Assembly: GCA_964016885.1 (NCBI GenBank)
Contig: OZ024741.1
Location: 26,040,001 to 26,104,000, forward strand
Length of the DNA: 64,000 bases
Direction: 5' to 3'
Source: Eledone cirrhosa
Taxonomy: Eukaryota
Below, one piece after another: positions 15,646 through 61,509 of the stretch; the first letter of the stretch is position 1, and every line of letters starts with the position of its first letter. The notes beneath the pieces are model-generated. The model did not search any database and was not told where the DNA came from. It worked only from the letters and a program-made list of their open reading frames with translations. The position numbers and the translations under genes were made by a program.

Positions 15646-15660
15646 CCCTATCATATAGAT

Positions 15661-15792: not shown

Positions 15793-15871
15793 ATATAGAT
15801 TAATGCAGTATCTGACAGTGTTTTCCTATTAAAAACTCTGTAATTCCTGTCTAACTATGTATATTTTGTAG

Positions 15872-16690: not shown

Positions 16691-16729
16691 TAATGCTTTC
16701 TTTATTATATTTTTTATTTATTCTTTATT

Positions 16730-16762
<33 letters not shown>

Positions 16763-16764
<2 letters not shown>

Positions 16765-18700: not shown

Positions 18701-18782
18701 TAATAATAAATTTGAAGACTAAAATCCAAAGAGGGCTCGATAAGGATAAATATATATCAAATATATAAGAACCATAGAGCAA

Positions 18783-21098
18783 ATATTTATTAAAATAACA
18801 GATTAAAGTTTAAGCAAAGAATCGCTGCTTTCACCCTTAATGGGATCTTCTGAAACTAAAAAAAATCAATCTGTGAACACAGAAGTAAATATTTCGAAAA
18901 ACGTTGCAACTGAAGGAAGACAGGAGGACGATACTTTGGTTCGTGGAGACGTTCCTTGCCAATGAACAGAAAAAAATGAAGATAATACATCATTATTTGG
19001 AGCGGTGAGAACAATTACACACAAAGACAAAACCACGTTTATGGTATAAATGAAGTCGTAGACTATCTGGTATAAATGAAGTCGTAGACTATCTAGGAAA
19101 CTGAATGATTCTCGGCTACAGAGTTAAGAATAGTGTAAATACATTACAGAGGTTATTGAAATCAACAATAATTAAATATATACATGCACACATCCATATA
19201 CGTACATACACATGCATATGCGAAAACACCCGCCATGGGTATGCATATACAACCACGTACACAAAAGCACACGCACACATCCAAAACCCCCGCAACACCT
19301 GTACCCGCACACATACGAACGTATACACCAAATACACAAAATATATATATGTGTGCGAGTGCGTGTATACATATAATTATATAAACATATATAAATATAC
19401 ACACATAAATACGTATATAACACGCGCCACACATACCTATAGGTAAATACACATATGTTCACTAAACATACGTCAACCAAAACACAAAGTACACATATAC
19501 ACACACCCTATATACGTCCAAACCCGCATACACACACAAATACAAAATACACGTATACACACAACCACATGTACCAGTATATATAATATAATATATACAC
19601 CTATAACAAATACAAGCAAACATGCGTACGAGAAAGTATACGTACCTTCACAAAACATACAGGTAAAATATACTTACCTATACAAATAAGTAATGGTATA
19701 AACATAAAATATACTTAGCTACCACATCAAGATGTAAATTGTAAATTATCCGCGTTTAGTACGTACTATCCGTTAGGGTATAACGTGGGGCTGTAATACA
19801 GGAAAGTTTTATCAATTTATGTTTACAAGCCGAAATTGCCTCAGATTTTTTGTTTAAGATGTGGTCATTGGCGTAGAGTATTTCTAGGGCTTCAGTGGTG
19901 CAGAGGTCACATGGTCTTTTATTTCCATTATACGATCTAGCCTCAGCTAGGATCTCCCAGTGTAACCTATATTGGGTGTGGTTGTCTTTTAGACTCCAGA
20001 TATAAGCTGAGTGTGACGTCATATTCCTTCTTAAAGGGTTAAGAAAAGAATGGATATGCATGTAAAGACGCTGCTTGAATCTATTGACGGTTAACCCTAT
20101 GTAGTCCCTACAGCACGTGGATGTTTCAACCTTACATTTGTAGACAATGTTACTGGAGAGGCATTTCCTGGATAGGGGGCAGTCAACCCGATTCCTACAA
20201 TTACAGTTAGTACTAACTACAGGGTTGATCGTGTTCCTACGGTTAGGTAATTTAGCTAAATTTGACGCAGTGATGTTATGTGCAAGGTAAGGAGTCGTAG
20301 AGTAAGAAATGTTAATGGTATTTGTATTAAAAATTTTATTATGTACGTGTATTTTGCGTTTGTGTGTGTATGCAGGTTTGGACGTATGTAGGGTGTGTGT
20401 ATATGTGTACTTTGTATTTTGGTTGATGTACGTTTAGCGAACATATGTGTGTTTACCTGTAGGTATGTGTGTGTGAGCGTTATATACGTATTTGTGGGTA
20501 TATTTATATACGTTTATATAATTATATGTATACACGCACACACACACATATACATATTTTTTGTGTATTTAGTGTATACGTTCGTATGTGTGTGGGTACA
20601 GGTGTTGCGCGGGTTTTTGTATGTGTGTGCGTGTTTTCGTGTACGTGCTTGTATATGCATACCCATGGCGGGTGTTTTTGCGTATGCATGTATATGTACA
20701 TTTATGGATGCGTGCATGTATATATTTAATTATTGTTGATTTCAATAACCTCTGTAATGTATTTACATTATTCTTAACTCTGTAGCCAAGAATCAAATAG
20801 AAACCTAAATGGAATTTTAGTCTACGACTTCATTTATACCATAAACGTGGTTTTGTCTTTGTGTGTAATTGTTTTCACCGCTCCACATAATGACGTATGA
20901 TCTTCGCTTTTTTTCGTTCTTTGCCAGGGAACGTCTCCACGAACCAACGTATCGTCTTCCTGTTTTCCTTTGGTGGCAACGTTTTTCGAAATATTTACTT
21001 CTGCGTTCACAGATTGATTTTTTTAGTTTCAGAAGATCCCGTTAAGAGTGAAAGCAGCGATTTTTTGCTTAAACTTTATTCTGTTATTTTAATAAATA
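18783..21098 (-). mobile_element. Penelope-like element, 5'-truncated: GIY-YIG endonuclease fragment (~20330-19756, minus strand) with 3' region and an inverted copy of it
   Basis: Minus frame reads CNCRNRVDCPLSRKC..NIVYKC..DYIGLT..FKQRLYMH..YIWSLKD..CDLC..LNKKSE..CKH. Arms 18783-19557 and 20342-21098 are reverse complements. Confidence 0.88.
18807..18857 (-). ncRNA. type I hammerhead-ribozyme-like motif (U4A variant) in the Penelope 3' region; weaker second copy at 21025-21075 (+)
   Basis: AGUUU-CAGAAGA-UCCCAUUAAGGGU-GAAA-GCAG...UUGCU-U-AAACU; stems I, II and III pair by eye. Confidence 0.5.
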
Positions 21099-21106
21099 TA
21101 TATATA

Positions 21107-21449
21107 TCATCATCATCATCATCATTTTACATCCACTTTTCCCTGCTTGCAAGGGTGGGACGGGAACTGATTCTGGCTTGATTTCTACAGCTGGATGCGC
21201 TTCCTAACACAAACCTCATTTACAATGAGTGGTGGGTGTTTTTTTTCTGTGGGACCTACACATCCACTTTGCAGTGGAATGATATGGACCCTAGTTCCTA
21301 TCATCTCATTTCTACAGCTGAGTAAACTGGAGCAATGTGAAATAAAGTGTCTTGCTCAAGGAAACAACACATCACCCGGTCTGAGAATTGAACTCACAAC
21401 CTTTCGATTGCAAAGCCAATGCTCTAACCACTAAACCATGTGCCTCCAT
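21107..21449 (-). mobile_element. full-length tRNA-SINE (family 1)
   Basis: Reverse complement of 21787-22123; (CAT)n tail. Confidence 0.9.
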
Positions 21450-21475
21450 ATCTTTAACCCCTAAGCCATGTGCCT

Positions 21476-21527
<52 letters not shown>

Positions 21528-21786
21528 TTAGAAATGCGCCTCCGGTAAAAACTTAAAACCAAAACTGAATACTAACGAATACTTATTACTAATTTATACT
21601 TATTCCTAATTAAATTTGTCACCATTTTCTTTTCCTTTTTACTAATATATCACAATTCGTGTGTCACAACTCTATATTTTTAAATATATATATATATCAT
21701 CATTATCACAGTTTAACATCCAATTTTTCCACACTAGCATGAGATAGACGAGTTGTCCTGTTGTGGGACAAGCCATATATATAGTG

Positions 21787-22123
21787 TGGAGGCACATGGC
21801 TTAGTGGCTAGAGCATTGGCCTTGCAATCGAAAGGTTGTGAGTTCAATTCTCAGACTGGGTGATGTGTTGTTTCCTTGAACAAGACACTTTATTTCACAT
21901 TGCTCCAGTTTACTCAGCTGTAGAAATGAGATGATAGGGACTGGAGTCCCTATCATTCTACTGCAAAGTGGTCGTGTAGGTGCCACGGCAAAAACCACCC
22001 AGCACTCACTGTAAATGAGGTTGGTGTTAGGAAGGGCATCCAGCTGTAGAAATCAAGCCAGAATCAGTTCCAGTCCCACCCTTGCAAGCAGGGAAAAGCG
22101 GACGTAAAATGATGATGATGATG
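21787..22123 (+). mobile_element. full-length tRNA-SINE (family 1)
   Basis: A box TGGCTTAGTGG at 21797, B box GAGTTCAATTC at 21840, core CAAGACACTTTATTTCACATTGCTCC, (ATG)n tail. Confidence 0.9.
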
Positions 22124-22173
22124 ATATATGTGTGTGTGTGTGTGTGCCTCACTTTCACTCTCTTCCATTACAG

Positions 22174-22343
22174 GGCCGTGAACAAGAACACACCTTTTTG
22201 TTTCGCCTGCAAGACCGTAAGGCATGTAAGCACCTATGGAAGTGTGCAGTGGAACATCATGCCTTCTTCCGACTGAAAAAACCCCTAAAAGGGGCCAATG
22301 CAAGACAGAACTTCTTTAGAATGGGATCACGTTTTCGATACAG
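22174..22343 (+). CDS. EPB41L5: Yurt/EPB41L5-like exon (end of FERM-C, start of FA): [12 protein letters not shown]...[17 protein letters not shown]...[10 protein letters not shown](S)
   Basis: ttacAG / GTCAGT; diagnostic GREQEHTF and [14 protein letters not shown]; phase 0 to 2. Confidence 0.97.
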
Positions 22344-22823
22344 GTCAGTATCTGTTTATTTTTTACATATGCTTTTCCTCGCCCAAATCACAAAACCACT
22401 GACTTTTACATATTTATATATATATATATCATCAGCAGCATTTAATGTTCCTTTTCCTTGCTAGCAAGGTCTGGACAGGTTTTCACAGACTAAATTAGTA
22501 CTCAAGTGGAACTACTGACCTGTCAGATTGGTCAAGAGCTCCCCTCTTGCTTACTTGCATTCCCACAGTCAACCATGTGCTCAGGCGGGCTTGAGGCCCA
22601 CATCCCCACAGTCTACTGAGTGCATTTTATCATAGCAGCAGCACTAGATAGTTGTCATATCTTTGATACAACTGAAAAGTCCTCCCAACCCTTTGTTTGG
22701 ATAGTTTTCTACAAGCATGAAAAAACAGATGTAATAACTATGATAATTAAGCTCTGTTACCTACATAGAGCACTCTTTTTTCCTGGATTTTCCGACGGAA
22801 TTACTTCATTTATTACATAACTA

Positions 22824-22855
<32 letters not shown>

Positions 22856-22856
<1 letters not shown>

Positions 22857-23325
22857 TGGGCATGGATACATTGAAACTCCAACGTCTGGCAACTGACTTG
22901 GTAAACACCCACAAAATTATTAACCATCTTGCCAACAACAACCCTGAGTACCTTTTTGATTTCCATGTGTCTAACACACGTGGGCATGCCAACAGAGTCA
23001 GAAAACAGCACAGCTCCCATGACTTTCGGAAACATTTTTTCACGCTCGGGGTTGCTGAAGCATGGAACAAACTACCTGCATCAGTTAATGGCTGTCGAGA
23101 CACTGCATCCTTTAAAATCTCCATGCTTCCTGAGATTCGCCAACACTACACCTGATGCCCCCCCCCCCCTCCATACACACATACACACACACACACACAT
23201 GTATTTCATGACTTGCACATTGTTCATTTTCCTAACATTTGTACATTATTCTATGTACTATACATGCACCTTTGATGAGTTGTAGTGCACCTGAGCACTG
23301 TACACAATAATTTCATTATTATTCT
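22856..23325 (+). mobile_element. 3' fragment of CR1-type LINE
   Basis: LRR-type motif LQRLATDL, NTRGH, FFTLGVAEAWNKLP; same 3' UTR (GTAGTGCACCTGAGCACTGTACACAAT) as the 62775 copy. Confidence 0.88.
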
Positions 23326-23476
23326 CTATATAACAATCCTTTATGAGCGAGACAAGGTCACCTGACCCAACTTGCCTCTAAATGGGACAAACCTGTCTAA
23401 CCCATGCTAGCATGGAAGATAGACGTTAAACGATGATGATAATATATATGATGGTGGTGTATAATAAACATACATG

Positions 23477-23557
23477 TACAGGGTGTGGCAAAAATACCTC
23501 CCACATTTTAATGGTTGATCATGTAAAATATGGGAGGTTTTTCTCCCACGACCTGTA
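23477..23557. mobile_element. ~80-bp Tc1/mariner-type hairpin MITE
   Basis: TA-CAGGGTGTGG..ACCTCCCACATTTTA / TAAAATATGGGAGGT..CCACGACCTG-TA. Confidence 0.65.
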
Positions 23558-23589
23558 TCTTACGAACATTTAAAAAAAATTTTTTAAAG

Positions 23590-24865
23590 CTGAGATCATG
23601 TGACTGCTATCTCAGTAATGGTGAGAATGCCAGGCAACTCTTTCTGGATTTTTATCCACCATCGGTGACATTCACTCACTTGTTACTGAAACAAAATACA
23701 CTCAAGTTTATGTGGTTTGTTTGTGTATGAAACATTAGCTGGAGGTACTCTTATGCATATAGTGCAAATTTGACTGGTTAAAGGGATATAATTAGAAGGG
23801 ACACTAACAAGTTCAAATTCCGTCGAGGTTAACTTTGCCTTTCATCCTTACGGGGTCGGTAAAATAAAGTACCAGTAATGTACTGGGTAATTGCTGGCCT
23901 TGTGCCAAAAAGTAGAAACAATTATTATATGTTTATTATATATGCTTTCATATAGATAGCTATGATGAACCACGCTATGTTAGTGCCACTTTTAATTACC
24001 ATATGTATATTAGTGGTATATATGAAGGTACATACGATATGTTTATGCACAATAAACATAATCTCAGATCCCAAATAATAAGTGTGGAGGGGGTGGGGGG
24101 TAATTTTTCTAGGTTGTCTCCGTTGATTTTTTTTTTAAAACCAAAATTAGTCGTTTAGTTTACATATTGAGACCCCAACCAATCCTATTTATTTTATAAC
24201 GTATGGGATTTCTAGTAATGTTCTTTTTTTGTCATGTATAATGTTTTTTAATGTCTAAAGAAAATTGTTGCAGGAATGTTACCACTTAAAATAATATTTT
24301 GCCAGAGATAGATTAGCAAAATTTAATAAGTGGGTGTGTGGGGCGTGGAATAAGAGCGTAAGGGGGATGGAAAAAATCTGAAAAATTAATAAGCGAGGAG
24401 TGGATGTAATTATTCAAGACCCATGGATAGAAAAGTCATGTCACAGCTATCTCAGTAGCTATGTGAGAAAGTCACACACGTGTTTCTGAATTTTTATTTG
24501 TCATCATTTACTCATTTGGTACTGAGACAAGAATAAGTTATAGCTTATATACATACTTGCATATGAAACATAGGCTGGAAATGCTCATTTGCATATAACA
24601 CAAATTAACATCAGCAGGAGATGTTCATTTGCATGTAGTGCAAGCTTGACTGGCTAGGAGGATTAATTAACTGTAGCACTAACATAGAGTGGTTCATAAG
24701 GGGAGTATATAGGAAAGCATGTATGATATGTTTATGTATAATATACATACATGAGTTTCACTATGAATATTTTAAGCTGTGATCATGTCACAGCTATATC
24801 AGAATATCAGACACATGTTTCTGGGTTTTTAGCCATCATCAGTGATGTTTACTCACTTGGTACTA
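23590..24865. repeat. old degenerate direct repeat, 3 partial copies (~23590, ~24433, ~24775); SINE fragment at 23810-23925
   Basis: TCATGT(G/C)AC(T/A)GCTAT(C/A)TCAG...TTTCTG..TTTT..CATC..TACTCA.TTG.TACT recurs. Confidence 0.6.
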
Positions 24866-24884
24866 ATTCATTATTTTGGCCGTT

Positions 24885-25200
24885 TGTATTCGCGATTGTA
24901 TTCTTTCAGTCATTACCAAAGACTCATGACTGTAGGTAAGGGTTGGCATGAATACCGAATTGAAGATAGTGAATTTGGCTATTACACCTACCTCCCTTCT
25001 TCTGATTACTGAATGCTGAAACTGGTACATTACTGCACCAGCTCCTGAAATTCTTGTACTTATTTCAGCTTCCTGCCTTCCATCACTTGTGAATACGGCC
25101 CCAAGATACTTGAACTTCTTCAGTGGAACTCCAATCATATGTAACATGCTCTGTGCAGGCTTCCTTGAGAGGAGGAGTATCTCAGTTTTCACAGATGGTA
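24885..25200 (-). mobile_element. RTE-clade LINE fragment (post-RT region)
   Basis: KFKYLGAVFTSDGRQEAEISTRI..PTLTYSHE..MTERIQSRIQ. Confidence 0.8.
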
Positions 25201-25261
25201 TTAGGGATGTTGATAATAATTCTGATAATGATGATGATCTCTTTCATTTCTATATTAACAG

Positions 25262-25414
25262 TGGCTACACAGAGTACCAAACGGCTGCCATTAACAGAGC
25301 TCGGCGTGGCGTCAAGTTTGAGAGGAGAGCAAGTCAAAGGTATTCGAGACGGCCAACATTTGAGAGACAAGAGAAGGAGGAGGAGTTGCTCAGACGTGAT
25401 ACAGAGTCCCGAAG
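25262..25414 (+). CDS. EPB41L5: Yurt/EPB41L5-like exon (FA domain): (S)GYTEYQTAAINRARRGVKFERRASQRYSRRPTFE...
   Basis: taacAG / GTAAGT; SGxTEYQT and FERRxSxRYSRR motifs; phase 2 to 2. Confidence 0.95.
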
Positions 25415-27292: not shown

Positions 27293-27759
27293 GCAAGTAC
27301 AGAGAGGACAAGATATTGATGGTGAAAGCAAAACTAAAGGTAGCCAGGAATCTCTGCTAAACACACGGTCCCCATCACCTATGGTAGAAACTTTGACACA
27401 GTCCCCTAAACAGAGACCTGCTGGTAAATACACCAATTCCAAAAGTAGAAACATCTCAAACAGCAGTGTCACTACTGCTACTACTACCACCACTACTACA
27501 ACTACTACTACTATGAATACTAATACTGCTACAACTACTACTGCTACTAGTGCTGTTGTTGATCCTTCAGAACAGTCACAGTCTGCTCCAATTTCTCCTT
27601 TAGAGCGTCTTGATTCTCTCATCAAAGGTGTTCAAGCTTCTGAACCTTGTCATCCACCTAAAGAGAATCTCTCCCCACCCCCTGCTGCTAAACTTACCAT
27701 CAAGAAAACACCCCAAACACCAGAGTATACTGAAGAAAAGCCGGAAGTCTCATTACAAG
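27293..27759 (+). CDS. EPB41L5: Yurt/EPB41L5-like exon, Ser/Thr/Pro-rich with poly-Thr tract
   Basis: Long polypyrimidine tract + tgcAG, donor GTGATT; open frame, phase 2 to 1, matches both neighbours. Confidence 0.85.
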
Positions 27760-27934
27760 GTGATTGTTTTGTTGATTTTTTTTTATATATATTTTTATAA
27801 CCAATTCTAATTATCATCATCATCATCATCTTTCTCCTCCTCCACTACCACCTCATCCTGCCTGTGTCATCGCCTCTGTGAGTCTCAGTGATTTGAGGTC
27901 AACTCTTACAACCTCCACCCAAGTCTAAATCTCT

Positions 27935-28162
27935 ATAACCCTTTAGCATTTAAACCGGCTATATCCGGCTGGAATTCTCTCACCTCTTTCTGTTCAAACC
28001 AGCCACAACTGGCCACTTATACTTATGTTAGGGTGTTGTTCTCAAAATAAATATCATCAAAATCTCATAAATTCGATATTATGTGAGATAATTATGTGAG
28101 CTAAATCCTTACCGTGAAAATATAATAGTAAATATAGAGTAATGTAAATGTTAAAGGGTTAA
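27935..28162. mobile_element. piggyBac-type MITE copy
   Basis: (A)TAA-CCCTTTAGCATTTA...TAAATGTTAAAGGG-TTAA. Confidence 0.85.
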
Positions 28163-28320
28163 GGTTATAATCACTAACTTAATAATGCAAAAGTTAGTTA
28201 TATTACTAAATCTCTACAAATTCTTGATTATTTTCAAAATTATTTGAAAATTATAGGCAGTCTCTTTTCTTTGGGAATATGGTGAGCAAGGGGTTAAACA
28301 TTGTCTGTTTATCATTTCAG

Positions 28321-28515
28321 AAGCGTCCGAGATTGCTGCTACTAAAATAAAAACTATTGAACAACCCAGTCATGTGCAACATATCATGAACAATGTAAAT
28401 GAACTGAAGAATAACCAGGAGAAAGTCACATCTAAGACGGCTCTTCCGATTCCTTCTGACCAAATGAAGTGCAACATCTTAAAGGCTAAACAACTTGAAG
28501 AACATGCTCATACAG
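28321..28515 (+). CDS. EPB41L5: Yurt/EPB41L5-like exon: (E)ASEIAATKIKTIEQ...PIPSDQMKCNILKAKQLEEHAHT
   Basis: atttcAG / GTAAGT; stop-free; phase 1 to 1. Confidence 0.88.
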
Positions 28516-28859
28516 GTAAGTCGTGTTGCTAGCAGCTCCAACAAAAAACAACCACCAAACAAACAACAGATCTTCTATGTGGTTGTTTGATGTGTTAGAA
28601 ATAGCAGTCAATTCTCTATATATGTTTTGACCCTGCCAGTCTGGTATTCCAGTTTCTACTACAATCTTTGACTATATCCTGCTGCACACATCTCTTCACT
28701 GCTGTTATTTACACCACTGTCTGCATCTCATACACCCTGTAAGGTTGCTAGTGGTAGGAAGGACACCAAGCTATGGAAACCATCCCAAAAAACGTTGAGA
28801 GGATGCTTCAGTTGTGTGAAGAGCATGACAACCTTATAAAGGTGTGATCTGAAGGGGAT

Positions 28860-29045
28860 TTCTGGCAGTATTGGTAGAGTGTCAGACAGCATGCTTTGTG
28901 GCATAGAGTTACGTTCTAAGTTCAAATCCCTCCAAGGCTTTCATCCTTATGGGGTCGATAAAATAAAGTACTAGTAATGTTCTGGGGTCAGTTTAATCGA
29001 CTTTCCCCTCCACAAGGCCTTGTGCTTGAATCAGAAATCCTTATT
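28860..29045 (+). mobile_element. SINE family 2, degenerate
   Basis: TGGCAGTATTGGTAGAG..GTTCAAATCCC..CATCCTTATGGGGTCGATAAAATAAAGTAC. Confidence 0.75.
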
Positions 29046-29146
29046 AATAGGTAAAGCGACCATGTAGATGTTCCTTCATTTGTTATTGTTATTTTTATTG
29101 TCTCAATTTTACCAAAATAAATTCTCTGCAATTTCTTTTCTTCCAG

Positions 29147-29177
29147 TGAAAACAGAAGTTATAACAGAATTCTTCAA
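29147..29177 (+). CDS. EPB41L5: 31-nt micro-exon (V)KTEVITEFF(K)
   Basis: Strong tttcttttcttccAG and GTAAGT; converts phase 1 to 2, as needed to join the 28515 and 29926 exons. Confidence 0.78.
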
Positions 29178-29925
29178 GTAAGTTGCCAATTGCCACTGAT
29201 TTTTTTTTTATATCAAAATATCTTTAATGCTATTTGTGTATGTATATGTATATTTGTATGAATGCATGTAAATGGATGGATCTGTCTATGTATGTGTATA
29301 TCTATCTGTGTGTTTTGTATGTCCATATATTTATGTATCTGTGTACATGTTAATGTGTGTCTGTGTGGTTGTTGTATTCCTGCATGTTTTAACAGAGCCG
29401 TCTCTAAGAAGCTGGTTTAGTTTGCACCTCTTCTGAAGTTATGGTCTTTCATTGTTAACTAACTGTAACAATGTTGTATTTTCCTGTTCACTTCTTGTGT
29501 ATGCCACTTCCTGTTAACCTTTGATGTGCCACTTCCTGTTGTGGAGCCATTTTCTTGTTACACATAACACAGTAAATGGTTGATTGAGTTGACTGAGCAA
29601 AATTTAGGAATAAATGAAGCCTGTGTCCAAGAGACAAACCTTACAGAAGGATGAAACTAAGGAATGAAGCATTTTAGAAAATCATGATACATTGCAGACG
29701 TAGGACACACAGGCTGTCCCATGTCACCAATATGGAGAAATAATTAAAAAAAAAATGTAAAGACAAGAAGGTAGAATATAGAATAATGATATATTTGTTC
29801 TGTTTTTTTTTTGTTTCGTTTTATGTGCTTTTCTATTCTTTACTTTTCTATTTTGTTTGTTCTGTATGTAAATCCTTTACCTTAAAGCATGCATTGCCAG
29901 TATTATGAAGTGGTATTCATTTCAG

Positions 29926-30087
29926 ACCTAATTCTGAGATATCCATTAATGAAAACGATGTTGTTGATGCTGCTACAACTGATACTACTACTATTACTAC
30001 TGCTACTATAAAGTCCTGTAATGAGCTACAGGAAGAACATTCCAGAGATGCCTTTTTAGCAGCCAATTCTAACTCTGATGAGAAAAG
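29926..30087 (+). CDS. EPB41L5: Yurt/EPB41L5-like exon (K)PNSEISINENDVVDAATTDTTT...NSNSDEK
   Basis: atttcAG / AG-GTATCC; open; phase 2 to 2. Confidence 0.72.
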
Positions 30088-30318
30088 GTATCCTCACACT
30101 GTTCATTTGTAAAAATCTGGCTCTAGCCTTAGACTTCAGAAGAAAAGCTCTACCAGTTGGTAACTAGCTACATAGACAACTAGCCAATTAATCACCTAGC
30201 TAACTAGCCAGCTACACACCCAAACAACTAGCCATCTAACCAGTTAGTCAGCTAACCAATTAGCCAGCTAGTCAGCTAATATTATTAATAAACCCTAACA
30301 GCTAATATTATTAACAAA

Positions 30319-30540
30319 GGGCGGTGGATTGGCAGTATCGGTAGAGGGTCGGACACCATGCTTTGCAGCAAAGAGTTACGGCCCTTTATGGTCTGATTTC
30401 AAATCCCGCTGAGGTTAACTTTGCCTTTCATCCTTACGAAGTTGATAAAATATAATACCAGTCGCGCACTGGGGTCGATTTAATCGACTTCCCCCTCCCC
30501 CAAAATTGCTGGTCTTGTGCCTATATAAGAAACCATTATT
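30319..30540 (+). mobile_element. full-length SINE family 2
   Basis: GGCGGTGGATTGGCAGTATCGG head, TTCAAATCCC B-box-like, GAAACCATTATT tail; TTATTAACAAA on both sides. Confidence 0.85.
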
Positions 30541-30669
30541 AACAAACCCTGTAACTAACAGAAAACTAATTGTGATGCTATACTAATATAACTGCTTTAA
30601 AACTTTAACATATGCTCATCCATTTTAACATATCTATGACAACTTGTTTATAAAGTGAAGTCAGATCTA

Positions 30670-31290
30670 TTACTAACAAATCCCACAGATGGTGAGACAC
30701 AGCCAGTAGTGTATTTAGAGTTTGTACCATCCAGGAGCAGTCTTTGAGTTTCCACCCCACCAACAACAAATCCTGCTGATGATAGGGTACAAGCAGGGAG
30801 GAGGTCCTTGAGTTTCCACCCCACCATGAATAAATCACATAGATGACGGGGCATAGCCAATGGTGTTAATAGAACTTGTGAAACCTGGAGGGAGGGGTTC
30901 TTAAGTTTCCATCCCACCATGAATAAATCACATAGCTGACAGGCCATAGCCAATGGTGTAGATAGGGCTTGTGAAACCTGGAGGGAGGGGTTCTTGAGTT
31001 TTGACCCATCATGAACAGGGCACAGTTAATGATGTCAGCTGGAGGGAGGTGTAGATAGGGCTTGTGAAACCTGGAGGGAGGGGTTCTTGAGTTTTGACCC
31101 ATCATGAACAGGGCACAGTTAATGATGTCAGCTGGAGGGAGGAGTTATTGAATTTTCACCCACCAAATAAATTCCACAGATGATGAAGCCCAGCCAATGG
31201 TGTATCTAGAGCTTGTGTCAACTGGAGAGAAGGTTTCTTCAGTTTCCATCCACCATGAACAAATCCTACACATATAACTAGAGTTTGTGC
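30670..31290. repeat. degenerate ~90-110-bp tandem repeat, including an exact 93-bp duplication (30955/31048)
   Basis: Recurring CTTGTGAAACCTGGAGGGAGGGGTTCTT..CCACCATGAA. Confidence 0.8.
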
Positions 31291-31684
31291 CACCTATGGC
31301 ACCCTACTATGAAATACATAGTGCTGTAGACCAAAAGCTGTTCATCTCAAAAGTGTCATCCGGGGTGAACTACACCTTCTAGCTATACTACAGGATATGG
31401 CATTAAAATGGGGTTTTCTTTTTGTTGGGGGAGGGGGAATATTATTGAGTAATCTGAATCTTGAAAGTTTTCATTAGTTCTTTCACCTTTGTTGTTGCTA
31501 ACAAATTTTAACATTGACACTTTGCTCATTATTAAACTAATTTAAATATTTACTAATTAAACTGCTTTACTACTACTGTACATCATATCCTGAAACTATG
31601 GTAAGCTTATATCTTTGTATAAGTCACATTTTTCCACTAAAATAGAATGTGATAAACTAAAATGTTATTTATCTACAGGGCCAA

Positions 31685-32215
31685 CAAAACCTCAATTCAA
31701 AATATATGGTACATTGTAAATGTTGTATGTAAAATGGTGGTGTGACTTATCTACTAGACCTACAAAACCTCAATTCAAAATATATGGTACATTGTAAATG
31801 TTGTATGTAAAATGGTGGTGTGACTTATCTACTAGACCTACAAAACCTCAATTCAAAATATATGGTATATTGTAAATGTTGTATGTAAAATGGTGGTGTG
31901 ACTTATCTACTAGACCTACAAAACCTCAATTCAAAATATATGGTATATTGTAAATGTTGTATGTAAAATGGTGGTGTGACTTATCTACTAGACCTACAAA
32001 ACCTCAATTCAAAATATATGGTATATTGTAAATGTTGTATGTAAAATGGTGGTGTGACTTATCTACTAGACCTACAAAACCTCAATTCAAAATATATGGT
32101 ATATTGTAAATGTTGTATGTAAAATGGTGGTGTGACTTATCTACTAGACCTACAAAACCTCAATTCAAAATATATGGTATATTGTAAATGTTGTATGTAA
32201 AATGGTGGTGTGACT
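31685..32215. repeat. 78-bp tandem repeat, ~6.8 near-identical copies
   Basis: CAAAACCTCAATTC at 31685, 31763, 31841, 31919, 31997, 32075, 32153. Confidence 0.97.
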
Positions 32216-33030
32216 AAGGCTGCCAAAACCTTTTTCTCAATAATACCAAAAACTGTTTCAAAAGTACTAAAATATAAAAAACATACCAAATCCAATCAAT
32301 ATAAAACTCCACAAATATTATAAAACGAAAATGTTTTACATTTACTTTATATATTTTAATTAAAAAGAAATGTCTTCTTCCACACTTTTCTTGCTGTACC
32401 AGTTTCTTGTAGTTTCAGACAAAGTTACAGTTGTGGATGTCACTTAGTGCAGTCAACATCTTACAACCTAGATCTTAACAGGGCATTTAATGTTGATGTT
32501 TTTAAAGCATGGTGATTTTTTGTTTTTATATTGTTGAGAAGAGAAAAATCTCTGCAGCTGCTGAAGAATATAGCAATGAAAGAAGTTCCATCATGAACTT
32601 AATAATGGGTAGCGATATATGTCACCACATTTTTCTTGTGAAACAAGAAACCTGTATTTCTCAAGCTCATTTTGTGCATTAAGAGATGTGTCTTGCAGAG
32701 TCAATTCCCTCCATTCTCTATTCATTTGTTGATATTGGTCTTCATGCACAAGGTTGGAAAATTTCATTGATCAATTTTGGTTTACCTTCATTAACATTGG
32801 TCGGATCAAAAGCTTCAAGTAGCTCTAAATTTGTAAACATGTCTTTGACACAACTCAAGGTTCCTCCCAACCAAAAATATCATGTAGCTAAATGATAGAT
32901 TTACATAGCACTGAGAGAAGCTGAAAACAGGAAGTTTACCATTGTTCTGCAACATGAGAATCAATGGTGTGAGATCCTCTGTATTGCAAAGCAGTGGGTC
33001 AGTGTGATTCATGGTGTCATTTAGATAAAA
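32216..33030 (-). mobile_element. degraded hAT-superfamily transposase 3' fragment
   Basis: Across frameshifts the minus strand reads QMNREWREL...RYPLL/KFMMELLSLLYSSAAAE/FSLLNNIKTK..LKTSTLNALL, a hAT C-terminal dimerization motif. Possible terminus TAAGGCTGCCAA at 32216. Confidence 0.6.
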
Positions 33031-33366
33031 GTATATTCAGAATGAAGCGCCCAGTCCCCACTATAAAGTGGTCATGTAGGTGTCGCGACAAAAAAGCGCC
33101 CAGTCCACACTGTCAAGTGATCATGTAGATGTCACAACAAAAATCACCCAGTCCACCCAGTTCTGTATGACCAAGACATGGTCATCGGACCTGGCTTGTC
33201 TCACAACTGGGCAACTCGTCTAAACCATGGTAGCATGGAAAAATGGACGTTAAACAGTGTTGATGATGATGATGGCAGACTTAGCACCACCAATCCTCAG
33301 AGAAAAGAGGCAACACAATATTACTATGGAAAGTTGCTGAATGTGTAAAGGAGATATGAATAGAAA

Positions 33367-36300
33367 TTGCCCCCAGTAGACTCAACAGAGAAACTACCTC
33401 CAGTAGACCCAACAGAGAGACTACCCCCAGTGGACCCAACAGAGAGACTACCCCCAGTGGACCCAACAGAGAGACTACCCCCAGTGGACCCAACAGAGAG
33501 ACTACCCCCCAGTGGACCCAACAGAGAAACTACCCCCAGTAGACCCAACAGAGAAACTACCTCCAGTAGACCCAACAGAGAAACTACCTCCAGTAGACCC
33601 AACAGAGAGACTACCCCCAGTAGACCCAACAGAGAGACTACCCCCAGTAGACCCAACAGAGAGACTACCCCCAGTGGACCCAACAGAGAGACTACCCCCA
33701 GTGGACCCAACAGAGAGACTACCCCCAGTGGACCCAACAGAGAGACTACCTCCAGTAGACCCAACAGAGAGACTACCCCCAGTAGACCCAACAGAGAGAC
33801 TACCCCCAGTGGACCCAACAGAGAGACTACCCCCAGTGGACCCAACAGAGAGACTACCCCCAGTGGACCCAACAGAGAGACTACCCCCAGTGGACCCAAC
33901 AGAGAGACTACCCCCAGTGGACCCAACAGAGAGACTACCCCCAGTGGACCCACCAGAGAAACTACCTCCAGTAGACCCAACAGAGAGACTACCCCCAGTA
34001 GACCCAACAGAGAGACTACCCCCAGTGGACCCAACAGAGAGACTACCCCCAGTAGACCCAACAGAGACTACCTCCAGTAGACCCAACAGAGAGACTACCC
34101 CCAGTAGACCCAACAGAGAGACTACCCCCAGTAGACCCAACAGAGAGACTACCCCCAGTGGACCCAACAGAGAGACTACCCCCAGTAGACCCAACAGAGA
34201 CTACCTCCAGTAGACCCAACAGAGAGACTACCCCCAGTAGACCCAACAGAGAGACTACCCCCAGTAGACCCAACAGAGAGACTACCCCCAGTGGACCCAA
34301 CAGAGACTACCCCCAGTAGACCCAACAAAGAGACTACCCCCAGTAGACCCAACAGAGAAACTACCCCCAGTAGACCCAACAGAGAGACTACCCCCAGTGG
34401 ACCCAACAGAGAAACTACCCCCAGTGGACCCAACAGAGAGACTACCCCCAGTAGACCCAACAGAGAAACTACCCCCAGTAGACCCAACAGAGAGACTACC
34501 CCCAGTAGACCCAACAGAGACTACCCCCAGTAGACCCAACAGAGAGACTACCCCCAGTGGACACAACAGAGAGACTACCCCCAGTAGACCCAACAGAGAG
34601 ACTACCCCCAGTAGACCCAACAGAGAGACTACCCCCAGTAGACCCAACAGAGAGACTACCCCCAGTAGACCCAACAGAGAGACTACCCCCAGTAGACCCA
34701 ATAGAGAGACTACCCCCAGTGGACCCAACAGAGAGACTACCCCCCAGTAGACCCAACAGAGAGACTACCCATAGTGGACCCAACAGAGAGACTACCCCCA
34801 GTAGACCCAACAGAGAGACTACCCATAGTGGACCCAACAGAGAGACTACCCCCAGTAGACCCAACAGAGAGACTACCCCCAGTAGACCCAACAGAGAGAC
34901 TACCCCCAGTAGACCCAACAGAGAGACTACCCCCAGTAGACCCAACAGAGAGACTACCCCCAGTGGACCCACCAGAGAGACTACCCCCAGTAGACCCAAC
35001 AGAGAGACTACCCCCAGTAGACCCAACAGAGAGACTACCCCCAGTAGACCCAACAGAGAAACTACCCCCAGTAGACCCAACAGAGAAACTACCCCCAGTA
35101 GACCCAACAGAGAGACTACCCCCAGTAGACCCAACAGAGAAACTACCCCCAGTGGACCCAACAGAGAGACTACCCCCAGTAGACCCAACAGAGAGACTAC
35201 CCCCAGTAGACCCAACAGAGAGACTACCCATAGTGGACCCAACAGAGAAACTACCCCCAGTGGACCCAACAGAGAAACTACCCCCATGTACCCAACAGAG
35301 AGACTACCCCCAGTAGACCCAACAGAGAGACTACCCATAGTGGACCCAACAGAGAAACTACCCCCAGTGGACCCAACAGAGAGACTACCCCCAGTGGACC
35401 CAACAGAGAGACTACCCCCAGTAGACCCAACAGAGAGACTACCCATAGTGGACCCACCAGAGAGACTAGACCCAACAGAGAGACTACCCCCAGTGGACCC
35501 AACAGAGAGACTACCCCCAGTGGACCCAACAGAGAGACTACCCCCAGTGGACCCAACAGAGAGACTACCCCCAGTGGACCCAACAGAGAGGCTACCCATA
35601 GTGGACCCAACAGAGAGACTACCTCCAGTAGACCCAACAGAGAGACTACCCCCAGTAGACCCAACAGAGAGACTACCCCCAGTGGACCTAACAGAGAGAC
35701 TACCCCCAGTGGACCCAACAGAGAGACTACCCCCAGTAGACCCAACAGAGAGGCTACCCATAGTGGACCCAACAGAGAGACTACCCATAGTGGACCCAAC
35801 AGAGAGACTACCCCCAGTGGACCCAACAGAGAGACTACCCCCAGTAGACCCAACAGAGAGACTACCCATAGTGGACCCAACAGAGAGACTACCCATAGTG
35901 GACCCAACAGAGAGACTACCCATAGTGGACCCAACAGAGAGACTATCCCCAGTAGACCCAACAGAGAGACTACCCCCAGTGGACCCAACAGAGAGACTAC
36001 CCCCAGTGGACCCAACAGAGAGACTACCCCCAGTAGACCCAACAGAGAGACTACCCATAGTGGACCCAACAGAGAGACTACCCATAGTGGACCCAACAGA
36101 GAGACTACCCCCAGTGGACCCAACAGAGAGACTACCCATAGTGGACCCAACAGAGAGACTACTCCCAGTGGACCCAACAGAGAGACTACCCCCAGTGGAC
36201 CCAACAGAGAAACTACCCCCAGTAGACCCAACAGAGAGACTACCCCCAGTAGACCCAACAGAGAGGCTACCCATAGTGGACCCAACAGAGAGACTACCCA

Positions 36301-36755
36301 TAGTGGACCCAACAGAGAGACTACCCCCAGTGGACCCAACAGAGAGACTACCCCCAGTAGACCCAACAGAGAGACTACCCATAGTGGACCCAACAGAGAG
36401 ACTACCCATAGTGGACCCAACAGAGAGACTACCCATAGTGGACCCAACAGAGAGACTACCCCCAGTGGACCCAACAGAGAGACTACCCCCAGTAGACCCA
36501 ACAGAGAGACTACCCATAGTGGACCCAACAGAGAGACTACCCATAGTGGACCCAACAGAGAGACTACCCATAGTGGACCCAACAGAGAGACTACCCCCAG
36601 TGGATCCAACAGAGAGACTACCCATAGTGGACCCAACAGAGAGACTACCCCCAGTAGACCCAACAGAGAGACTACCCATAGTGGACCCAACAGAGAGACT
36701 ACCCCCAGTGGACCCAACAGAGAGACTACCCCCAGTAGACCCAACAGAGAGACTA
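33367..36755. repeat. 27-bp minisatellite (GACCCAACAGAGAGACTACCCCCAGTR), ~125 copies; intronic
   Basis: Direct periodicity; 1-2 nt indels switch reading frames. Confidence 0.98.
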
Positions 36756-36977
36756 GGTATCAAAGGAAGAGAGATAAAAGATATACTTTAAACAATTCAA
36801 CATGCCTTGGCTGACAGTATATACAGAACATACTTTTTCTATTTAATCTTCTATTTCTCACTCTACCTTCTAGACTAGTGTCTGATTTGTAAATACTCTT
36901 TTCCTACTATATCAAGTGTTAAACTAATATATTTCTTCATTGTAGTGTGTTGTTTGCTTTGCTGTTTCTGTTTACTT

Positions 36978-37023
<46 letters not shown>

Positions 37024-37164
37024 TACACACACATATAATGTGTGCATGTGTAAATCTGTGAAGAATAAATATTCATGACAATATAGCATTTCAAGAAAAA
37101 AACTCAATACAAGAAGTAGAGTGTAATGGTTTATTATTAAGACTGTCATAATTTCTTATTACAG

Positions 37165-37239
37165 TGGTCAAGAAGATAACAGTCGTCTAAAGAAACCGAA
37201 ATCTATAAGTTCAACTTCGTCCACATCCAGTTGTAATGG
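37165..37239 (+). CDS. EPB41L5: 75-nt Yurt/EPB41L5-like exon (S)GQEDNSRLKKPKSISSTSSTSSCN(G)
   Basis: tttcttattacAG / GG-GTAATT; phase 2 to 2. Confidence 0.75.
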
Positions 37240-58991: not shown

Positions 58992-59082
58992 TTTTGATGT
59001 TTCCAGACCTGAAATAGGAACTGACCAGAAAAAGACAAATGAAGTTTTTGTAACAAATTCAAAAATATCGAAAATTCCTCAG
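58992..59082 (+). CDS. EPB41L5: Yurt/EPB41L5-like exon (G)FDVSRPEIGTDQKKTNEVFVTNSKISKIPQ
   Basis: tctcttttcAG / CAG-GTAAAA; phase 2 to 0. Confidence 0.78.
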
Positions 59083-59551
59083 GTAAAACTAGTTGACTTT
59101 TGTTTTTAGACATTTCTTGAAGGAAATTGTCTGATAAGGTTTAGAGGACTTTGTGTGTGTTTTTGTGCATACACATACATACAAAGATGTGTGGACATAT
59201 TACAAATCAGAGAAGTTTACATAACCCAGAAGCAGCTTTTGTTTTGTTCGATGGGAGAGAAATCTTTTGGTGAAATCTGGTTTTGAAGAGGTTTCAAACA
59301 ATTTCAAAAATCAGTCTGTTTCAAATATTAAAGAAATATTAATGGACAGTGAGTAATGATAAAGGATGTCTCCTCCTTAACACTTATTAAAAGTATGTAG
59401 CTAATATATCAGTGGAGTTATATGGCCTAGTGGTTAGAGTGTTCGACTCATGATCGTAAACTCATAGATTCAGTTCTTGGACCATATCATGTTATGTTCT
59501 TGAAAAAAAAGTCCTTTATTTCATATAGCTTCTCAAGATAGAAATCTACCA

Positions 59552-59779
59552 TTAACCCTTTAGCATTTTAACTGGCCGTAACCAGCCAGAATTCTCTTGC
59601 CTCTTTCTGTTCAAACTGACTGTAACTGGCCACTCATACTCATGTTAAGTTATTGTTATCAAAATAAATTATATCAAACTCTCATATATTCAATATTATG
59701 TGAGATATTATGTAAGATAAAGCCTTTACTGTGAAAATACAATAGTATATATAGAGTAATGTATATGCTAAAGAGTTAA
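59552..59779. mobile_element. piggyBac-type MITE inside a degenerate tRNA-SINE (head ~59413)
   Basis: TTAA-CCCTTTAGCAT...ATGCTAAAGAG-TTAA; upstream TGGCCTAGTGGTTAGAG A box. Confidence 0.8.
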
Positions 59780-60032
59780 TACTCTCACGACACCTCGTAT
59801 GAGATGCAACCTTGTAGGAGTTCAGCTAAACCTAGGTGTGAGTTTATATACCAGAAACTCTCAGGTTGAATTTTGAATAAGTTACCCACAAGTTATTGTT
59901 TAGCCCCAGATCAGTCCTGATTGAGCAGAGTTATGATCAAAAACATTCCAGCTGTGACCATCCCATATTTTTGTATATTTAGGAATTGTTGAATATGTCT
60001 TTCCATTGTTTTTGTAAAATGGTTAAGTTTTA

Positions 60033-60302
60033 ATTTGAGCTAACATGATGTAGAAGTTTCCTTTTTGAGCTAACATGATGTAGAAGTTCCCTTTTTGAGT
60101 TAACATGGCATAGAAGTTCCCTTTTTGAGTTAACATGGCATAGAAGTTCCCTTTTTGAGTTAACATGATGTAGAAGTTCCTTTTTAAGCTAACACACTGA
60201 AGAAGGTCCCTTTCTGAGCTAACACATTGTAGAAGGTCCCTTTTTGAGCTAACACATTGTAGAAGATCCCTTTTTGAGCTCACATGGTGTAGAAGTTCCT
60301 TT
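60033..60302. repeat. 30-bp tandem repeat, ~9 copies
   Basis: CTTTTTGAGCTAACATGATGTAGAAGTTCC period 30. Confidence 0.92.
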
Positions 60303-60525
60303 CATTTATCTTAGAAAAGATACATAGCCACAGGTAAGCAATCAATCTAGGCTATTTAGTGGGTTTAGAGACGTTTCTGTGGTGTATTGAGGTAAGAAAT
60401 ATATATTTTATTGCTTTCTTATGCTTTGTGGTTTCTCTTCTAAATATTGTTGGTGGTTGTTGTTGTTGTTATTGTCGTTGCTTTCTCTTTGAAATAAAAC
60501 AGTTATCTCTCTTGTGCTTTCACAG

Positions 60526-61509
60526 CGAGATTCAGCAAGAACAAAAATCTTGCTGCCTTCTGAAAAGGGGAAATCTCCACATCAAGAGGATCTATCAAGA
60601 CAGAAAGACACAGCAGGGATATTCTCTTTTCCACCCAATAGTCCCAACATGACTAACAATAATTTCGACAGGGCTTCCGTTTCCTCAAAGCCTCCTTCAG
60701 CTGAAATACTTATCAATTTCTCCCCTACTAGCAAGAATGGCAATGTTGACGATCCCCAGCCTACAGCTGCCAACTATGGAAGGAATCCATTCCGTTCTGG
60801 GAATTCCCAAATCCCTTCTCCATTGCAGAAGTCTCCCCCTTCCCAGATTCCTTCATCACAGGTGACAATCAGTAAAGCTGGTCAACAAAATATTGGCAAA
60901 ACTCATTCACAGATCCGTGTGCCATCACAGATCCCATCTTTTTCACAAGGTTCGCCACCAACTCAAATCCCTACATTCTCACAAAACTCGCCTCCAACCC
61001 ATATCCCCACCCTTTCACAGAGCTCCCCTCCCACTCAAATACCTTCACTTTCACAGAACTCCCCTCTCTCTCAGATACCTTCTCCCACATCAAATTCCAA
61101 AAATCCGTTTTACAATTCCCAAAACAAGGCTACAAACCCTTTCGTTAATGAAGACAACCAAAAAAGTCTTCCAAGATCTAAGAATCCTTTCATAAATCTG
61201 GCAAATGAAGAATCATTGTCCCAAAAGTCTAAGTTACCAGTTCTGAACGCAACCAAACCTCAAGATCTTGATTTTTCGGATAACTTCACTTCTAAGGATG
61301 CTGATCTGAATAGCTCAATAACAGCTGAACTAGATTCTATTGTTGCCAACCTTACTACTGCTGGAGAGAAAAAGATGATGCCGCCACCATCATCTTTCTC
61401 ATCGTTGTCAGGGTTACAGAAACAATCTTCTGTTCACTCATCTGAGAGTTCTTCCATTCCTCCCCCTGTCGTTCGAGTCAACAAGCCTACCAGTGATGTG
61501 ATCATCCAT
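60526..61509 (+). CDS. EPB41L5: 984-nt Yurt/EPB41L5-like exon, S/P/Q/N-rich disordered region with SxIP and NPF repeats
   Basis: tgctttcacAG / GTAAGT; 328 open codons; phase 0 to 0; internal repeats diverge mainly at synonymous sites. Confidence 0.88.

What the first reader, a model, noticed from the sequence alone, without database searches (positions are those of the whole stretch)
59068..61461. Tandem, 12-aa-periodic SxIP motif array in a Yurt/EPB41L5 homolog: candidate multivalent EB1 / microtubule plus-end tracker
Seen: SKIP (59068), SQIP (60805, 60841, 60925, 61069), TQIP (60961, 61033), THIP (60997), SKLP (61228) and SSIP (61450). Five motifs fall exactly 36 nt apart (60925-61069) in a [ST]QIP[ST][FL]SQxSPP unit free of acidic residues. 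Codons differ between copies (TCA CAG ATC CCA / ACT CAA ATC CCT / ACC CAT ATC CCC / ACT CAA ATA CCT / TCT CAG ATA CCT) while I-P is kept, which suggests protein-level constraint. Established: [ST]x[IL]P in Ser/Pro-rich disorder is the EB-binding microtubule tip-localisation signal, and nearby Ser phosphorylation switches it off. Yurt/EPB41L5 is known as a Crumbs-binding polarity and junction FERM protein, and I do not know it as a +TIP. Inference: this lineage links a membrane FERM domain to microtubule ends through up to ~10 motifs. Caveat: the repeated units carry few basic residues, which normally strengthen binding.
Basis: partly seen in the sequence, partly recalled or inferred. Interest (0 to 1): 0.75.

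Follow-up and report, generated by a model that had tools for sequence, protein, structure and literature searches.

The report
Octopus Yurt microtubule-tip and endocytic motifs
An octopus cell-polarity gene (Yurt) splices in a large exon with a conserved run of short motifs that likely bind microtubule-tip (EB) proteins, interleaved with four more widely shared motifs that likely bind endocytosis proteins, so this membrane scaffold would connect to both machineries.

Summary
All ten motifs sit at the stated coordinates, in frame, in the Yurt/EPB41L5 gene of an octopod. One exon-only, RNA-like run splices the SKIP exon to the 984-nt array exon.

The array exceeds chance and shows protein-level constraint (pN 0.23, pS 0.71). 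It is kept in four cephalopod clusters (11-13 motifs) and reappears with different, more basic spacers in oysters and scallops (9-11). 100 of 116 Yurt rows have three or fewer. SSIP 61450 is poorly conserved.

The periodic copies lack basic flanks, so each is likely a weak EB ligand; avidity is inferred. No binding was tested, and the complex predictor was unavailable.

NPF occurs in 51 of 53 long Yurt tails (molluscs, annelid, arthropods). It drops out as one block in short isoform models and is absent from nine named deuterostome sequences.

Best reading: a long Yurt isoform that likely couples the membrane to EB-decorated microtubule ends and to EH-domain trafficking proteins. This is a new variant of known motif systems; I found no paper on it in a limited library.

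The parts
12973..25414 (+). Five exons of the FERM B/C lobes and FA region of Yurt/EPB41L5: 12973-13060, 14289-14377, 15872-15941, 22174-22343, 25262-25414. Earlier FERM exons lie upstream of the window.
   Evidence: tblastn with Octopus and Argonauta proteins; AG..GT ends and open frame; FERM_C hit; X1 joint 22343-25262; tree
27293..37239 (+). Tail exons 27293-27759, 28321-28515 (with the shared QMKCNILKAK stretch and a TALP at 28437), 29147-29177, 29926-30087 (162 nt, likely a cassette) and 37165-37239
58992..59082 (+). 91-nt exon ending in K-I-S-K-I-P-Q (SKIP at 59068-59079)
   Evidence: X1 GT..AG joint to 60526; SKIP kept in 4 of 4 cephalopod clusters
60526..61509 (+). 984-nt phase 0-0 exon, 328 aa, Ser/Pro-rich and predicted disordered; holds 9 [ST]x[IL]P and 4 NPF
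   Evidence: covered end to end by one 1380-nt X1 contig; no Pfam hit; mean pLDDT 47 on a 5-row alignment
60805..60852 (+). Two SQIP motifs 36 nt apart, each with Arg or Lys 4 residues upstream
   Evidence: kept in 4 of 4 and 3 of 4 relatives
60919..61098 (+). Five 12-aa repeats (SQIP, TQIP, THIP, TQIP, SQIP), acid-free and with almost no basic residues
   Evidence: pN 0.23 vs pS 0.71; Ile 16/16, Pro 15/16 and Ser/Thr 16/16 over three octopods
61228..61239 (+). K-SKLP-V, the most canonical motif of the set
   Evidence: passes the strict context rule; SKLP in 4 of 4 relatives
61450..61461 (+). SSIP, acidic flank, poorly conserved; likely not functional
60784..60792 (+). NPF 1, just upstream of the SxIP array
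   Evidence: kept in 4 of 4 relatives
61102..61191 (+). NPF 2-4 (61102, 61135, 61183), between the repeats and SKLP
   Evidence: each kept in 4 of 4 relatives

Best explanation
This is a spliced exon of octopod Yurt/EPB41L5 whose conserved [ST]x[IL]P array likely acts as a multivalent, individually weak binding element for EB (microtubule end-binding) proteins, and whose four NPF motifs likely bind EH-domain trafficking proteins.

Proposed working: the FERM-FA head holds Yurt at the membrane and oligomerises (shown for fly and human proteins in PMC6219725, assumed here). The predicted-disordered tail would then present many SxIP motifs. The basic-flanked ones (SKIP, SKLP, and three SQIP with an upstream Arg/Lys) would give affinity; the uncharged repeats would add avidity. 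Growing microtubule ends would be caught at Yurt-rich membrane, and phosphorylation of the many Ser/Thr-Pro sites would switch this off (inferred by analogy). The NPF cluster, the more widely shared and so likely older part of the exon, would recruit Eps15/intersectin-type or EHD proteins.

Shown: motifs, splicing, gene identity, constraint, distribution. Inferred: every binding step and the cellular role.
For: Splicing: GT..AG joint and exon-only cover in run X1; open frame to the C-terminal TLTTEL. FERM and array lie in one protein in 4 database clusters, one with a member called on 28 Logan contigs of up to 5.7 kb.

Constraint: pN 0.23 vs pS 0.71 among the 5 copies. In 16 copies read off by 12-aa register, Ile is 16/16, Pro 15/16 and Ser/Thr 16/16, while no other column exceeds 13/16.

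Same motif, different spacers: 12 of 116 rows have 9 or more motifs (4 cephalopod, 4 oyster-type, 4 scallop), 4 have 4-8, and 100 have 3 or fewer. In those three groups none of seven permuted control patterns reaches the SxIP count (0-7 vs 9-13). Ser/Thr stands two before I-P in 19/22, 8/10, 37/44 and 31/45 cases against 5.8, 2.2, 10.7 and 10.0 expected. 5-7 motifs per protein pass the strict context rule in scallops, oysters, ark clam and P0006.

Partners exist in the genome: one EB locus, 6 EH matches.

Precedent: SQIP mediates EB binding in APC (stated in PMC3257584) and in Drosophila Dome, where the flanks read by hand from a primer hold no basic residue (PMC5886756). 480-kDa ankyrin-G uses 10 SxIP motifs to anchor microtubules at the membrane (PMC6839619).

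NPF: 51 of 53 tails of 450 aa or more have at least one and 39 of 53 at least two, against about 0.1 expected.
Against: Lys/Arg at x or +1 is not enriched in octopods (4 vs 4.9 expected) or P0006 (3 vs 2.6), though EB1 aptamers prefer it (PMC3967968).

Avidity is not guaranteed: in that paper 4-7 tandem copies nearly abolished the two-hybrid signal. The conserved SQIP of CK1-delta was neither necessary nor sufficient for EB1 binding in vitro.

Copies decay: SLIS in Argonauta, SQIT in P0006.

Distribution: heterodont bivalves, most gastropods, the annelid row, most arthropods and deuterostomes show chance-level counts, so the array is not needed for core Yurt function.

Statistics: motif counts and P values are not independent (kin species, isoforms, tandem duplication). 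RNA support in this species is one run of unrecorded kind, and no single contig spans FERM to array.
Confidence: 0.5

Rival explanations
1. Yurt does bind EB, but only through the few basic-flanked motifs (SKIP, SKLP, perhaps the first three SQIP). The 12-aa repeats are a redundant or spacer expansion of a unit that already held a motif.
For: The repeats fail the basic-residue rule. Copy number varies (5-6 in octopods, shorter units in P0006) and some copies decay. SKIP and SKLP are identical in 4 of 4 clusters.
Against: Ile, Pro and Ser/Thr are the best-kept columns of the repeat, with synonymous change around them. A non-basic SQIP was required for Dome-Eb1 pull-down.
Confidence: 0.22
2. The constrained [ST]xIP units bind something other than EB, for example a phospho-Ser/Thr-Pro reader, a kinase, or an unknown partner tied to the NPF trafficking role. 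LC8-type TQT repeats and SQ/TQ kinase clusters were considered (both motifs recalled, not from a call).
For: Low basic content in cephalopods; 7 SP/TP sites in the 101-aa array; the CK1-delta SQIP acts in vivo without being needed for EB1 binding in vitro.
Against: Gln, the anchor of both recalled motifs, varies (11/16) while Ile-Pro does not. Oyster and scallop arrays use K, R, N, S and G at x with basic neighbours, as EB ligands do.
Confidence: 0.15
3. The array is a neutral low-complexity expansion in a repeat-prone genome; the motifs are by-products of Ser/Pro-rich composition and tandem duplication.
For: The window is full of minisatellites, and shuffle tests overstate significance for tandem copies.
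Against: 5 motifs remain after collapsing the repeats (P=0.0007); pN is far below pS; permuted controls are not enriched; arrays with unrelated spacers occur in oysters and scallops.
Confidence: 0.1
4. The exon is not part of the Yurt mRNA (intronic open frame or mis-assembly).
Against: GT..AG joint in X1. Contig overhangs equal the neighbouring exon lengths exactly. Full-length orthologs contain FERM and array together.
Confidence: 0.03

Closest known systems
Yurt / EPB41L5 (Lulu, YMO1) FERM-FA polarity proteins (PMC6219725, first part of the text read)
   Same: FERM-N/M/C plus FA head, C-terminal TTEL, and placement in the Yurt clade with SH-aLRT 99.
   Different: The tail has 11 [ST]x[IL]P and 4 NPF. 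Nine named deuterostome sequences have 0-4 and 0. Term searches in that paper found no mention of microtubules, NPF or endocytosis. Human and Drosophila proteins were not among my rows.
480-kDa ankyrin-G (PMC6839619, passages read)
   Same: Membrane scaffold whose long isoform carries about 10 SxIP motifs; there they are shown to track plus ends and recruit microtubules to the membrane through EBs.
   Different: Unrelated head domain, experimentally proven, and a much longer tail. The Yurt array is compact, partly 12-aa periodic, poor in basic residues and interleaved with NPF motifs.
SQIP-type EB ligands: APC and Drosophila Domeless (PMC3257584, PMC5886756, passages read)
   Same: Same tetrapeptide; Dome is membrane-bound and its SQIP has non-basic flanks.
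   Different: One motif each, not an array. CK1-delta in the same paper shows that SQIP need not drive EB binding.
Multi-NPF EH-domain ligands such as epsin, Numb, MICAL-L1 and syndapin (PMC13282721, PMC3570524, passages read)
   Same: Several NPF tripeptides in a disordered tail.
   Different: Yurt did not appear in the passages of the EHD partner table that I saw. Acidic residues after NPF, which favour EHD proteins, are rare in cephalopods (3 of 12) and common in gastropods (20 of 27).

Membership tests
Yurt/EPB41L5 FERM-FA proteins | FERM N, M, C lobes followed by FA domain | tested here: met
   All four Pfam domains over cut-off in 5 of 5 full-length relatives scanned and FERM_C in the window exon. 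Window exons are 95-96% identical to octopod orthologs over 189 aa. The FERM-N exons of this genome were not located.
Yurt/EPB41L5 FERM-FA proteins | Groups with named Yurt/EPB41L5 and apart from other band 4.1 proteins | tested here: met
   Quick IQ-TREE of 52 rows: Yurt clade SH-aLRT 99, cephalopods 100, octopods 100. The careful search did not finish; the 7 outgroup rows are unnamed.
Yurt/EPB41L5 FERM-FA proteins | C-terminal T-x-L end (PDZ-binding label recalled) | tested here: met
   The spliced frame ends TLTTEL in an exon about 5.4 kb beyond the window.
Yurt/EPB41L5 FERM-FA proteins | Crumbs binding, oligomerisation, aPKC control | not testable with these tools
   Known for fly and human proteins; assumed here.
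SxIP-type EB-binding +TIPs | Core [ST]x[IL]P motif | tested here: met
   10 of 10 at the stated places plus one TALP; beyond chance.
SxIP-type EB-binding +TIPs | Motif lies in a disordered Ser/Pro-rich region | tested here: met
   Ser 19%, Pro 13%; no Pfam hit; mean pLDDT 47 with no residue at 70 or more (the shallow alignment makes this weak).
SxIP-type EB-binding +TIPs | No acidic residue in the 9-residue context | tested here: met
   8 of 10 are acid-free; SKIP (Asp +3) and SSIP (Glu -2) are not. The window layout (2 before, 3 after) is recalled from Jiang 2012, which I did not read.
SxIP-type EB-binding +TIPs | At least one basic residue next to the motif | tested here: inconclusive
   With the acid rule, 2 of 10 pass my strict layout and 4 of 10 pass the wording of PMC4834103. 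Four of the five periodic copies have no Arg/Lys nearby. Bivalve and P0006 arrays have 5-7 passing motifs.
SxIP-type EB-binding +TIPs | An EB protein with an EBH domain in the organism | tested here: met
   One PF03271 locus, 67 bits, matching human EB1/EB3 chains in the PDB.
SxIP-type EB-binding +TIPs | Motif-dependent EB binding and plus-end tracking | not testable with these tools
   Needs experiment; the complex predictor was not available.
EH-domain ligands (NPF proteins) | One or more NPF tripeptides in an unstructured tail, conserved | tested here: met
   4 NPF, each kept in 4 of 4 relatives; 51 of 53 long tails have NPF.
EH-domain ligands (NPF proteins) | Acidic residues after NPF (preference of C-terminal EHD proteins) | tested here: not met
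   1 of 4 window motifs and 3 of 12 cephalopod motifs have an acid at +1..+3 (rule). This lowers 'EHD ligand', not 'EH ligand'.
EH-domain ligands (NPF proteins) | Binding to an EH domain | not testable with these tools
   EH-domain matches exist in the genome (6); binding untested.
Multivalent LC8 (TQT) ligands | Invariant Gln anchor (recalled) | tested here: not met
   Gln 11 of 16 while Ile is 16 of 16.

The most novel reading that the evidence does not exclude
Protostome Yurt has a long isoform switched on by a cassette block that makes it an EH-domain (endocytic or recycling) adaptor. In molluscs this block has gained EB-binding SxIP arrays at least twice independently (coleoid cephalopods; oysters, scallops and kin). 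The result is a FERM polarity protein that both captures microtubule plus ends and recruits trafficking machinery at the same membrane site, an analogue of giant ankyrin-G built on a FERM head.
Probability: 0.3. Interest if true: 0.72.

Novelty: new variant of a known kind. Interest (0 to 1): 0.5.

Why it matters
Yurt/EPB41L5 limits the apical membrane and opposes Crumbs, and the work I read places its known activities in the FERM-FA head. Two clusters of short motifs in the tail give direct tests: a microtubule plus-end link in cephalopods and pteriomorph bivalves, and an EH-domain link in long isoforms across molluscs, an annelid and arthropods. The second could be tested in an insect model. 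If both hold, Yurt joins the membrane scaffolds that capture microtubule ends, and it is a case of a short-motif array expanding repeatedly. If not, it remains a well-conserved but unexplained tail. The limit on importance is that the deuterostome orthologs examined lack both features.

Tried and rejected
Complex prediction: EB dimer (O. vulgaris EBH alignment) with the 64-aa repeat peptide was not available; the queue was full twice and nothing was folded. It gives no evidence either way.

RNA runs: no RNA holder was listed. X1 was judged RNA-like only from its exon-only cover and GT..AG joints. No joint skipping the 984-nt exon was listed for X1, but the tables are cut and contigs show presence only, so skipping in this species is open; it would keep the frame.

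Other look-ups: the ESM Atlas gave no usable hit. Three look-ups of earlier findings gave nothing.

Literature: searches pairing Yurt or EPB41L5 with EB1, SxIP or NPF gave 0 papers, 0, 2 (listing only, topics unrelated), 1 (a review where EB1 occurs only in a reference title) and 11 (2 of the 10 listed were read by term search, with no such link). Two papers sought by recalled id were not held. Jiang 2012 and its supplementary candidate lists were not seen and may bear on novelty. Most subscription journals are outside the library.

Corrected along the way: my recalled 'oligomerisation domain' in the tail was wrong; the paper puts the interface in FERM-FA. A first exon model had the 91-nt exon start one base early (fixed). 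A first motif tally missed 24 insect rows through a too-narrow anchor (fixed).

Rejected: the stop-free 42-nt satellite (37366-57561) as a giant exon, since X1 contig lengths join the exons on either side and none of the 4 orthologs aligned carries it. LC8 and SQ/TQ readings, since Gln varies.
Full report
OBSERVATION. All ten motifs are at the stated coordinates with the stated codons. Nine lie in one open frame within 60526-61509; SKIP lies in a separate small exon. The 328-aa exon has 9 [ST]x[IL]P against a shuffle mean of 1.26 (0 of 20,000 shuffles reached 9). It still has 5 against 0.80 (P=0.0007) when the five periodic copies are counted once.

THE GENE. Twelve exons in the window, all AG..GT, plus a last exon about 5.4 kb beyond it, give an open frame ending TLTTEL. 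The exon's only homologs among 5,071 longer candidates were 4 clusters, all FERM-FA proteins: band 4.1-like protein 5 of Octopus bimaculoides, O. vulgaris and Argonauta, and an unnamed protein P0006 (71, 72, 57 and 43% identical). A quick tree of 52 FERM-FA rows puts the window in the Yurt/EPB41L5 clade (SH-aLRT 99), with the octopods (100) and with P0006 as sister to them (100). I read P0006 as a more distant cephalopod, which is an inference.

SPLICING. No run is on record as RNA. Run X1 covers only exons and joins 59082 to 60526 across a GT..AG intron, whereas X2-X4 cover introns too. In X1 a 2769-nt contig runs from the FERM-C exon through 28512 and 34 letters further; a 222-nt contig holds the 162-nt exon with 30 letters each side. 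The 1380-nt contig that holds SKIP and the array reaches 74 letters upstream and 229 downstream. These overhangs equal the remaining exon lengths (3+31; 74+1=75), so I infer one transcript with a 162-nt cassette. No single contig spans FERM to array. In relatives the link is direct: a 1050-aa member of P0006's cluster is called on 28 contigs of up to 5,679 nt.

CONSTRAINT ON THE ARRAY. Among the five copies, pairwise differences fall 34/22/73 on codon positions 1/2/3, and pN is 0.23 against pS 0.71 (uncorrected). I read 16 copies by 12-aa register in three octopods, leaving out O. sinensis as near-identical to O. bimaculoides. Ile was 16/16, Pro 15/16 and Ser/Thr 16/16; the best other columns were 13/16 and Gln at x was 11/16. 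The copies are related, so this shows constraint and not independent events. SKIP, SKLP, four of the seven SQIP-type motifs and all four NPF are kept in 4 of 4 relatives; three motifs are kept in 3 of 4; SSIP is poorly kept (alignment within repeats is ambiguous).

DISTRIBUTION. I took the best 120 of 1,893 FERM-FA hits and dropped 4 phosphatase fusions. Of the 116 left, 12 have 9 or more tail motifs (4 cephalopod, 4 oyster-type, 4 scallop), 4 have 4-8, and 100 have 3 or fewer. Rows include isoforms and close kin. An ark clam from the representative search has 6. The arrays use different spacers: 12 aa in octopods, shorter SQIP-SPK units in P0006, and SKIP/SRIP/SNIP/SGIP with basic neighbours in oysters and scallops. 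Seven permuted control patterns stay at 0-7 in these proteins against 9-13 for SxIP. Ser/Thr two before I-P is enriched in these groups but not in heterodont bivalves, annelid plus arthropods, or deuterostomes; gastropods show a weaker excess (14/31 vs 7.0). The tree does not resolve mollusc classes, so independent expansion against ancestral presence with loss is open.

ARE THEY EB LIGANDS? Reviews give the rule as core motif, disorder, no acidic and at least one basic neighbour (PMC9877351; PMC4834103; passages read). The exon is 19% Ser and 13% Pro, has no Pfam hit and folds with mean pLDDT 47. Eight of ten motifs are acid-free. With a strict 9-residue layout (recalled) only SKLP and THIP pass, and the other octopods have 1-2 passing motifs, near chance. 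P0006, scallops, oysters and the ark clam have 5-7 against 0.4-0.7 expected. Under the looser wording, read by hand, four pass (60805, 60841, 60925, 61228). Precedent cuts both ways. APC binds EB1 by SQIP, and Dome needs an SQIP with non-basic flanks to pull down Eb1. But the CK1-delta SQIP was dispensable in vitro, EB1 aptamers favour Arg/Lys at x and +1, and long tandem aptamers lost two-hybrid signal (PMC3967968). The genome has an EB locus.

THE NPF CLUSTER. NPF is the ligand of EH domains (PMC13282721). Of the 116 rows, 51 of 53 with tails of 450 aa or more have at least one NPF and 39 have two or more. Of 63 shorter tails, 20 have two or more and 43 have none. Shuffles give 0-0.15 per tail. 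In 6 of 7 long/short pairs (four insects, Mytilus galloprovincialis, and one cross-species Haliotis pair) one missing block holds all the NPFs; the seventh pair gave no such block. These are database gene models. Nine named deuterostome sequences have none. Human and Drosophila proteins were not examined. Acidic residues after NPF, which favour EHD proteins, occur in 3 of 12 cephalopod, 20 of 27 gastropod and 13 of 45 arthropod motifs. An Eps15/intersectin-type partner is therefore the likelier guess in octopus (inference). The genome has 6 EH matches.

MECHANISM. Shown: motifs, splicing, identity, constraint and spread. Taken from fly and human work: membrane location and FERM-FA oligomerisation (PMC6219725, first of five parts read). 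Inferred: oligomeric Yurt displays many weak and a few stronger SxIP motifs that capture EB-coated microtubule ends, tuned by phosphorylation at 7 SP/TP sites in the array, while the NPF motifs recruit EH-domain proteins. I give this 0.5. EB binding through the basic motifs alone gets 0.22, another ligand 0.15, neutral expansion 0.10 and non-exonic 0.03.

COMPARISON AND NOVELTY. It is a member of the Yurt/EPB41L5 family. It looks like an SxIP +TIP but cannot be filed as one: the basic-context test is inconclusive and binding is untested. The nearest working analogue is 480-kDa ankyrin-G (PMC6839619, passages). Five searches pairing Yurt or EPB41L5 with EB1, SxIP, NPF, EPS15 or MAPRE1 found no report of either motif set (followed up in 65, 71, 72). 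The library lacks most subscription papers, two papers sought by recalled id were not held, and the supplementary lists of the 2012 SxIP screen were not seen.

VERDICT. It is a new variant of known motif systems and is directly testable, but all binding is predicted. Interest 0.5.

Noticed in passing
window 37366-57561: A 42-nt minisatellite of about 481 copies (20 kb, 96% match) fills the intron before the SKIP exon and is stop-free in several frames for up to 3,500 codons. X1 contig lengths imply it is spliced out.
   Followed up: partly
window 4-12376, 33370-36755, 31669-32215: Further intronic minisatellites: 23 nt x 538, 27 nt x 126 and 78 nt x 7.
   Followed up: no
last coding exon, L002:6411-6596: Cephalopod Yurt lacks the C-terminal SPWxV motif (0 of 4) found in 32 of 45 other mollusc-block rows and 25 of 43 remaining rows (24 insect rows were not in that tally). 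This suggests a lost binding site.
   Followed up: partly
window about 59040-59050 and 60700-60720: Two short tail motifs, (N/S/Q)(E/D)VF and EI-I-(D/N)F, are shared by cephalopods (4 of 4) and many other mollusc-block rows (41 and 22 of 45) but almost no others (0 and 1 of 43). Ligands unknown.
   Followed up: partly
P0138 and P0202 (copepod-type Yurt rows): They carry SRLP/SRIP and SKIP motifs with basic context beside 4-5 NPF, a possible further small gain of SxIP motifs; not significant on its own.
   Followed up: partly
window 29926-30087 and 28321-28515: Both exons can be skipped in frame. X1 contig ends suggest the first is a cassette, and database isoforms lack the second.
   Followed up: partly
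window 63410-64000 (-), 16657-18613 (+), 19756-20433 (-): Mobile-element remnants in introns: a reverse transcriptase frame (RVT_1, E 2e-29) and further frames that look like non-LTR retrotransposon and nuclease pieces by eye.
   Followed up: partly
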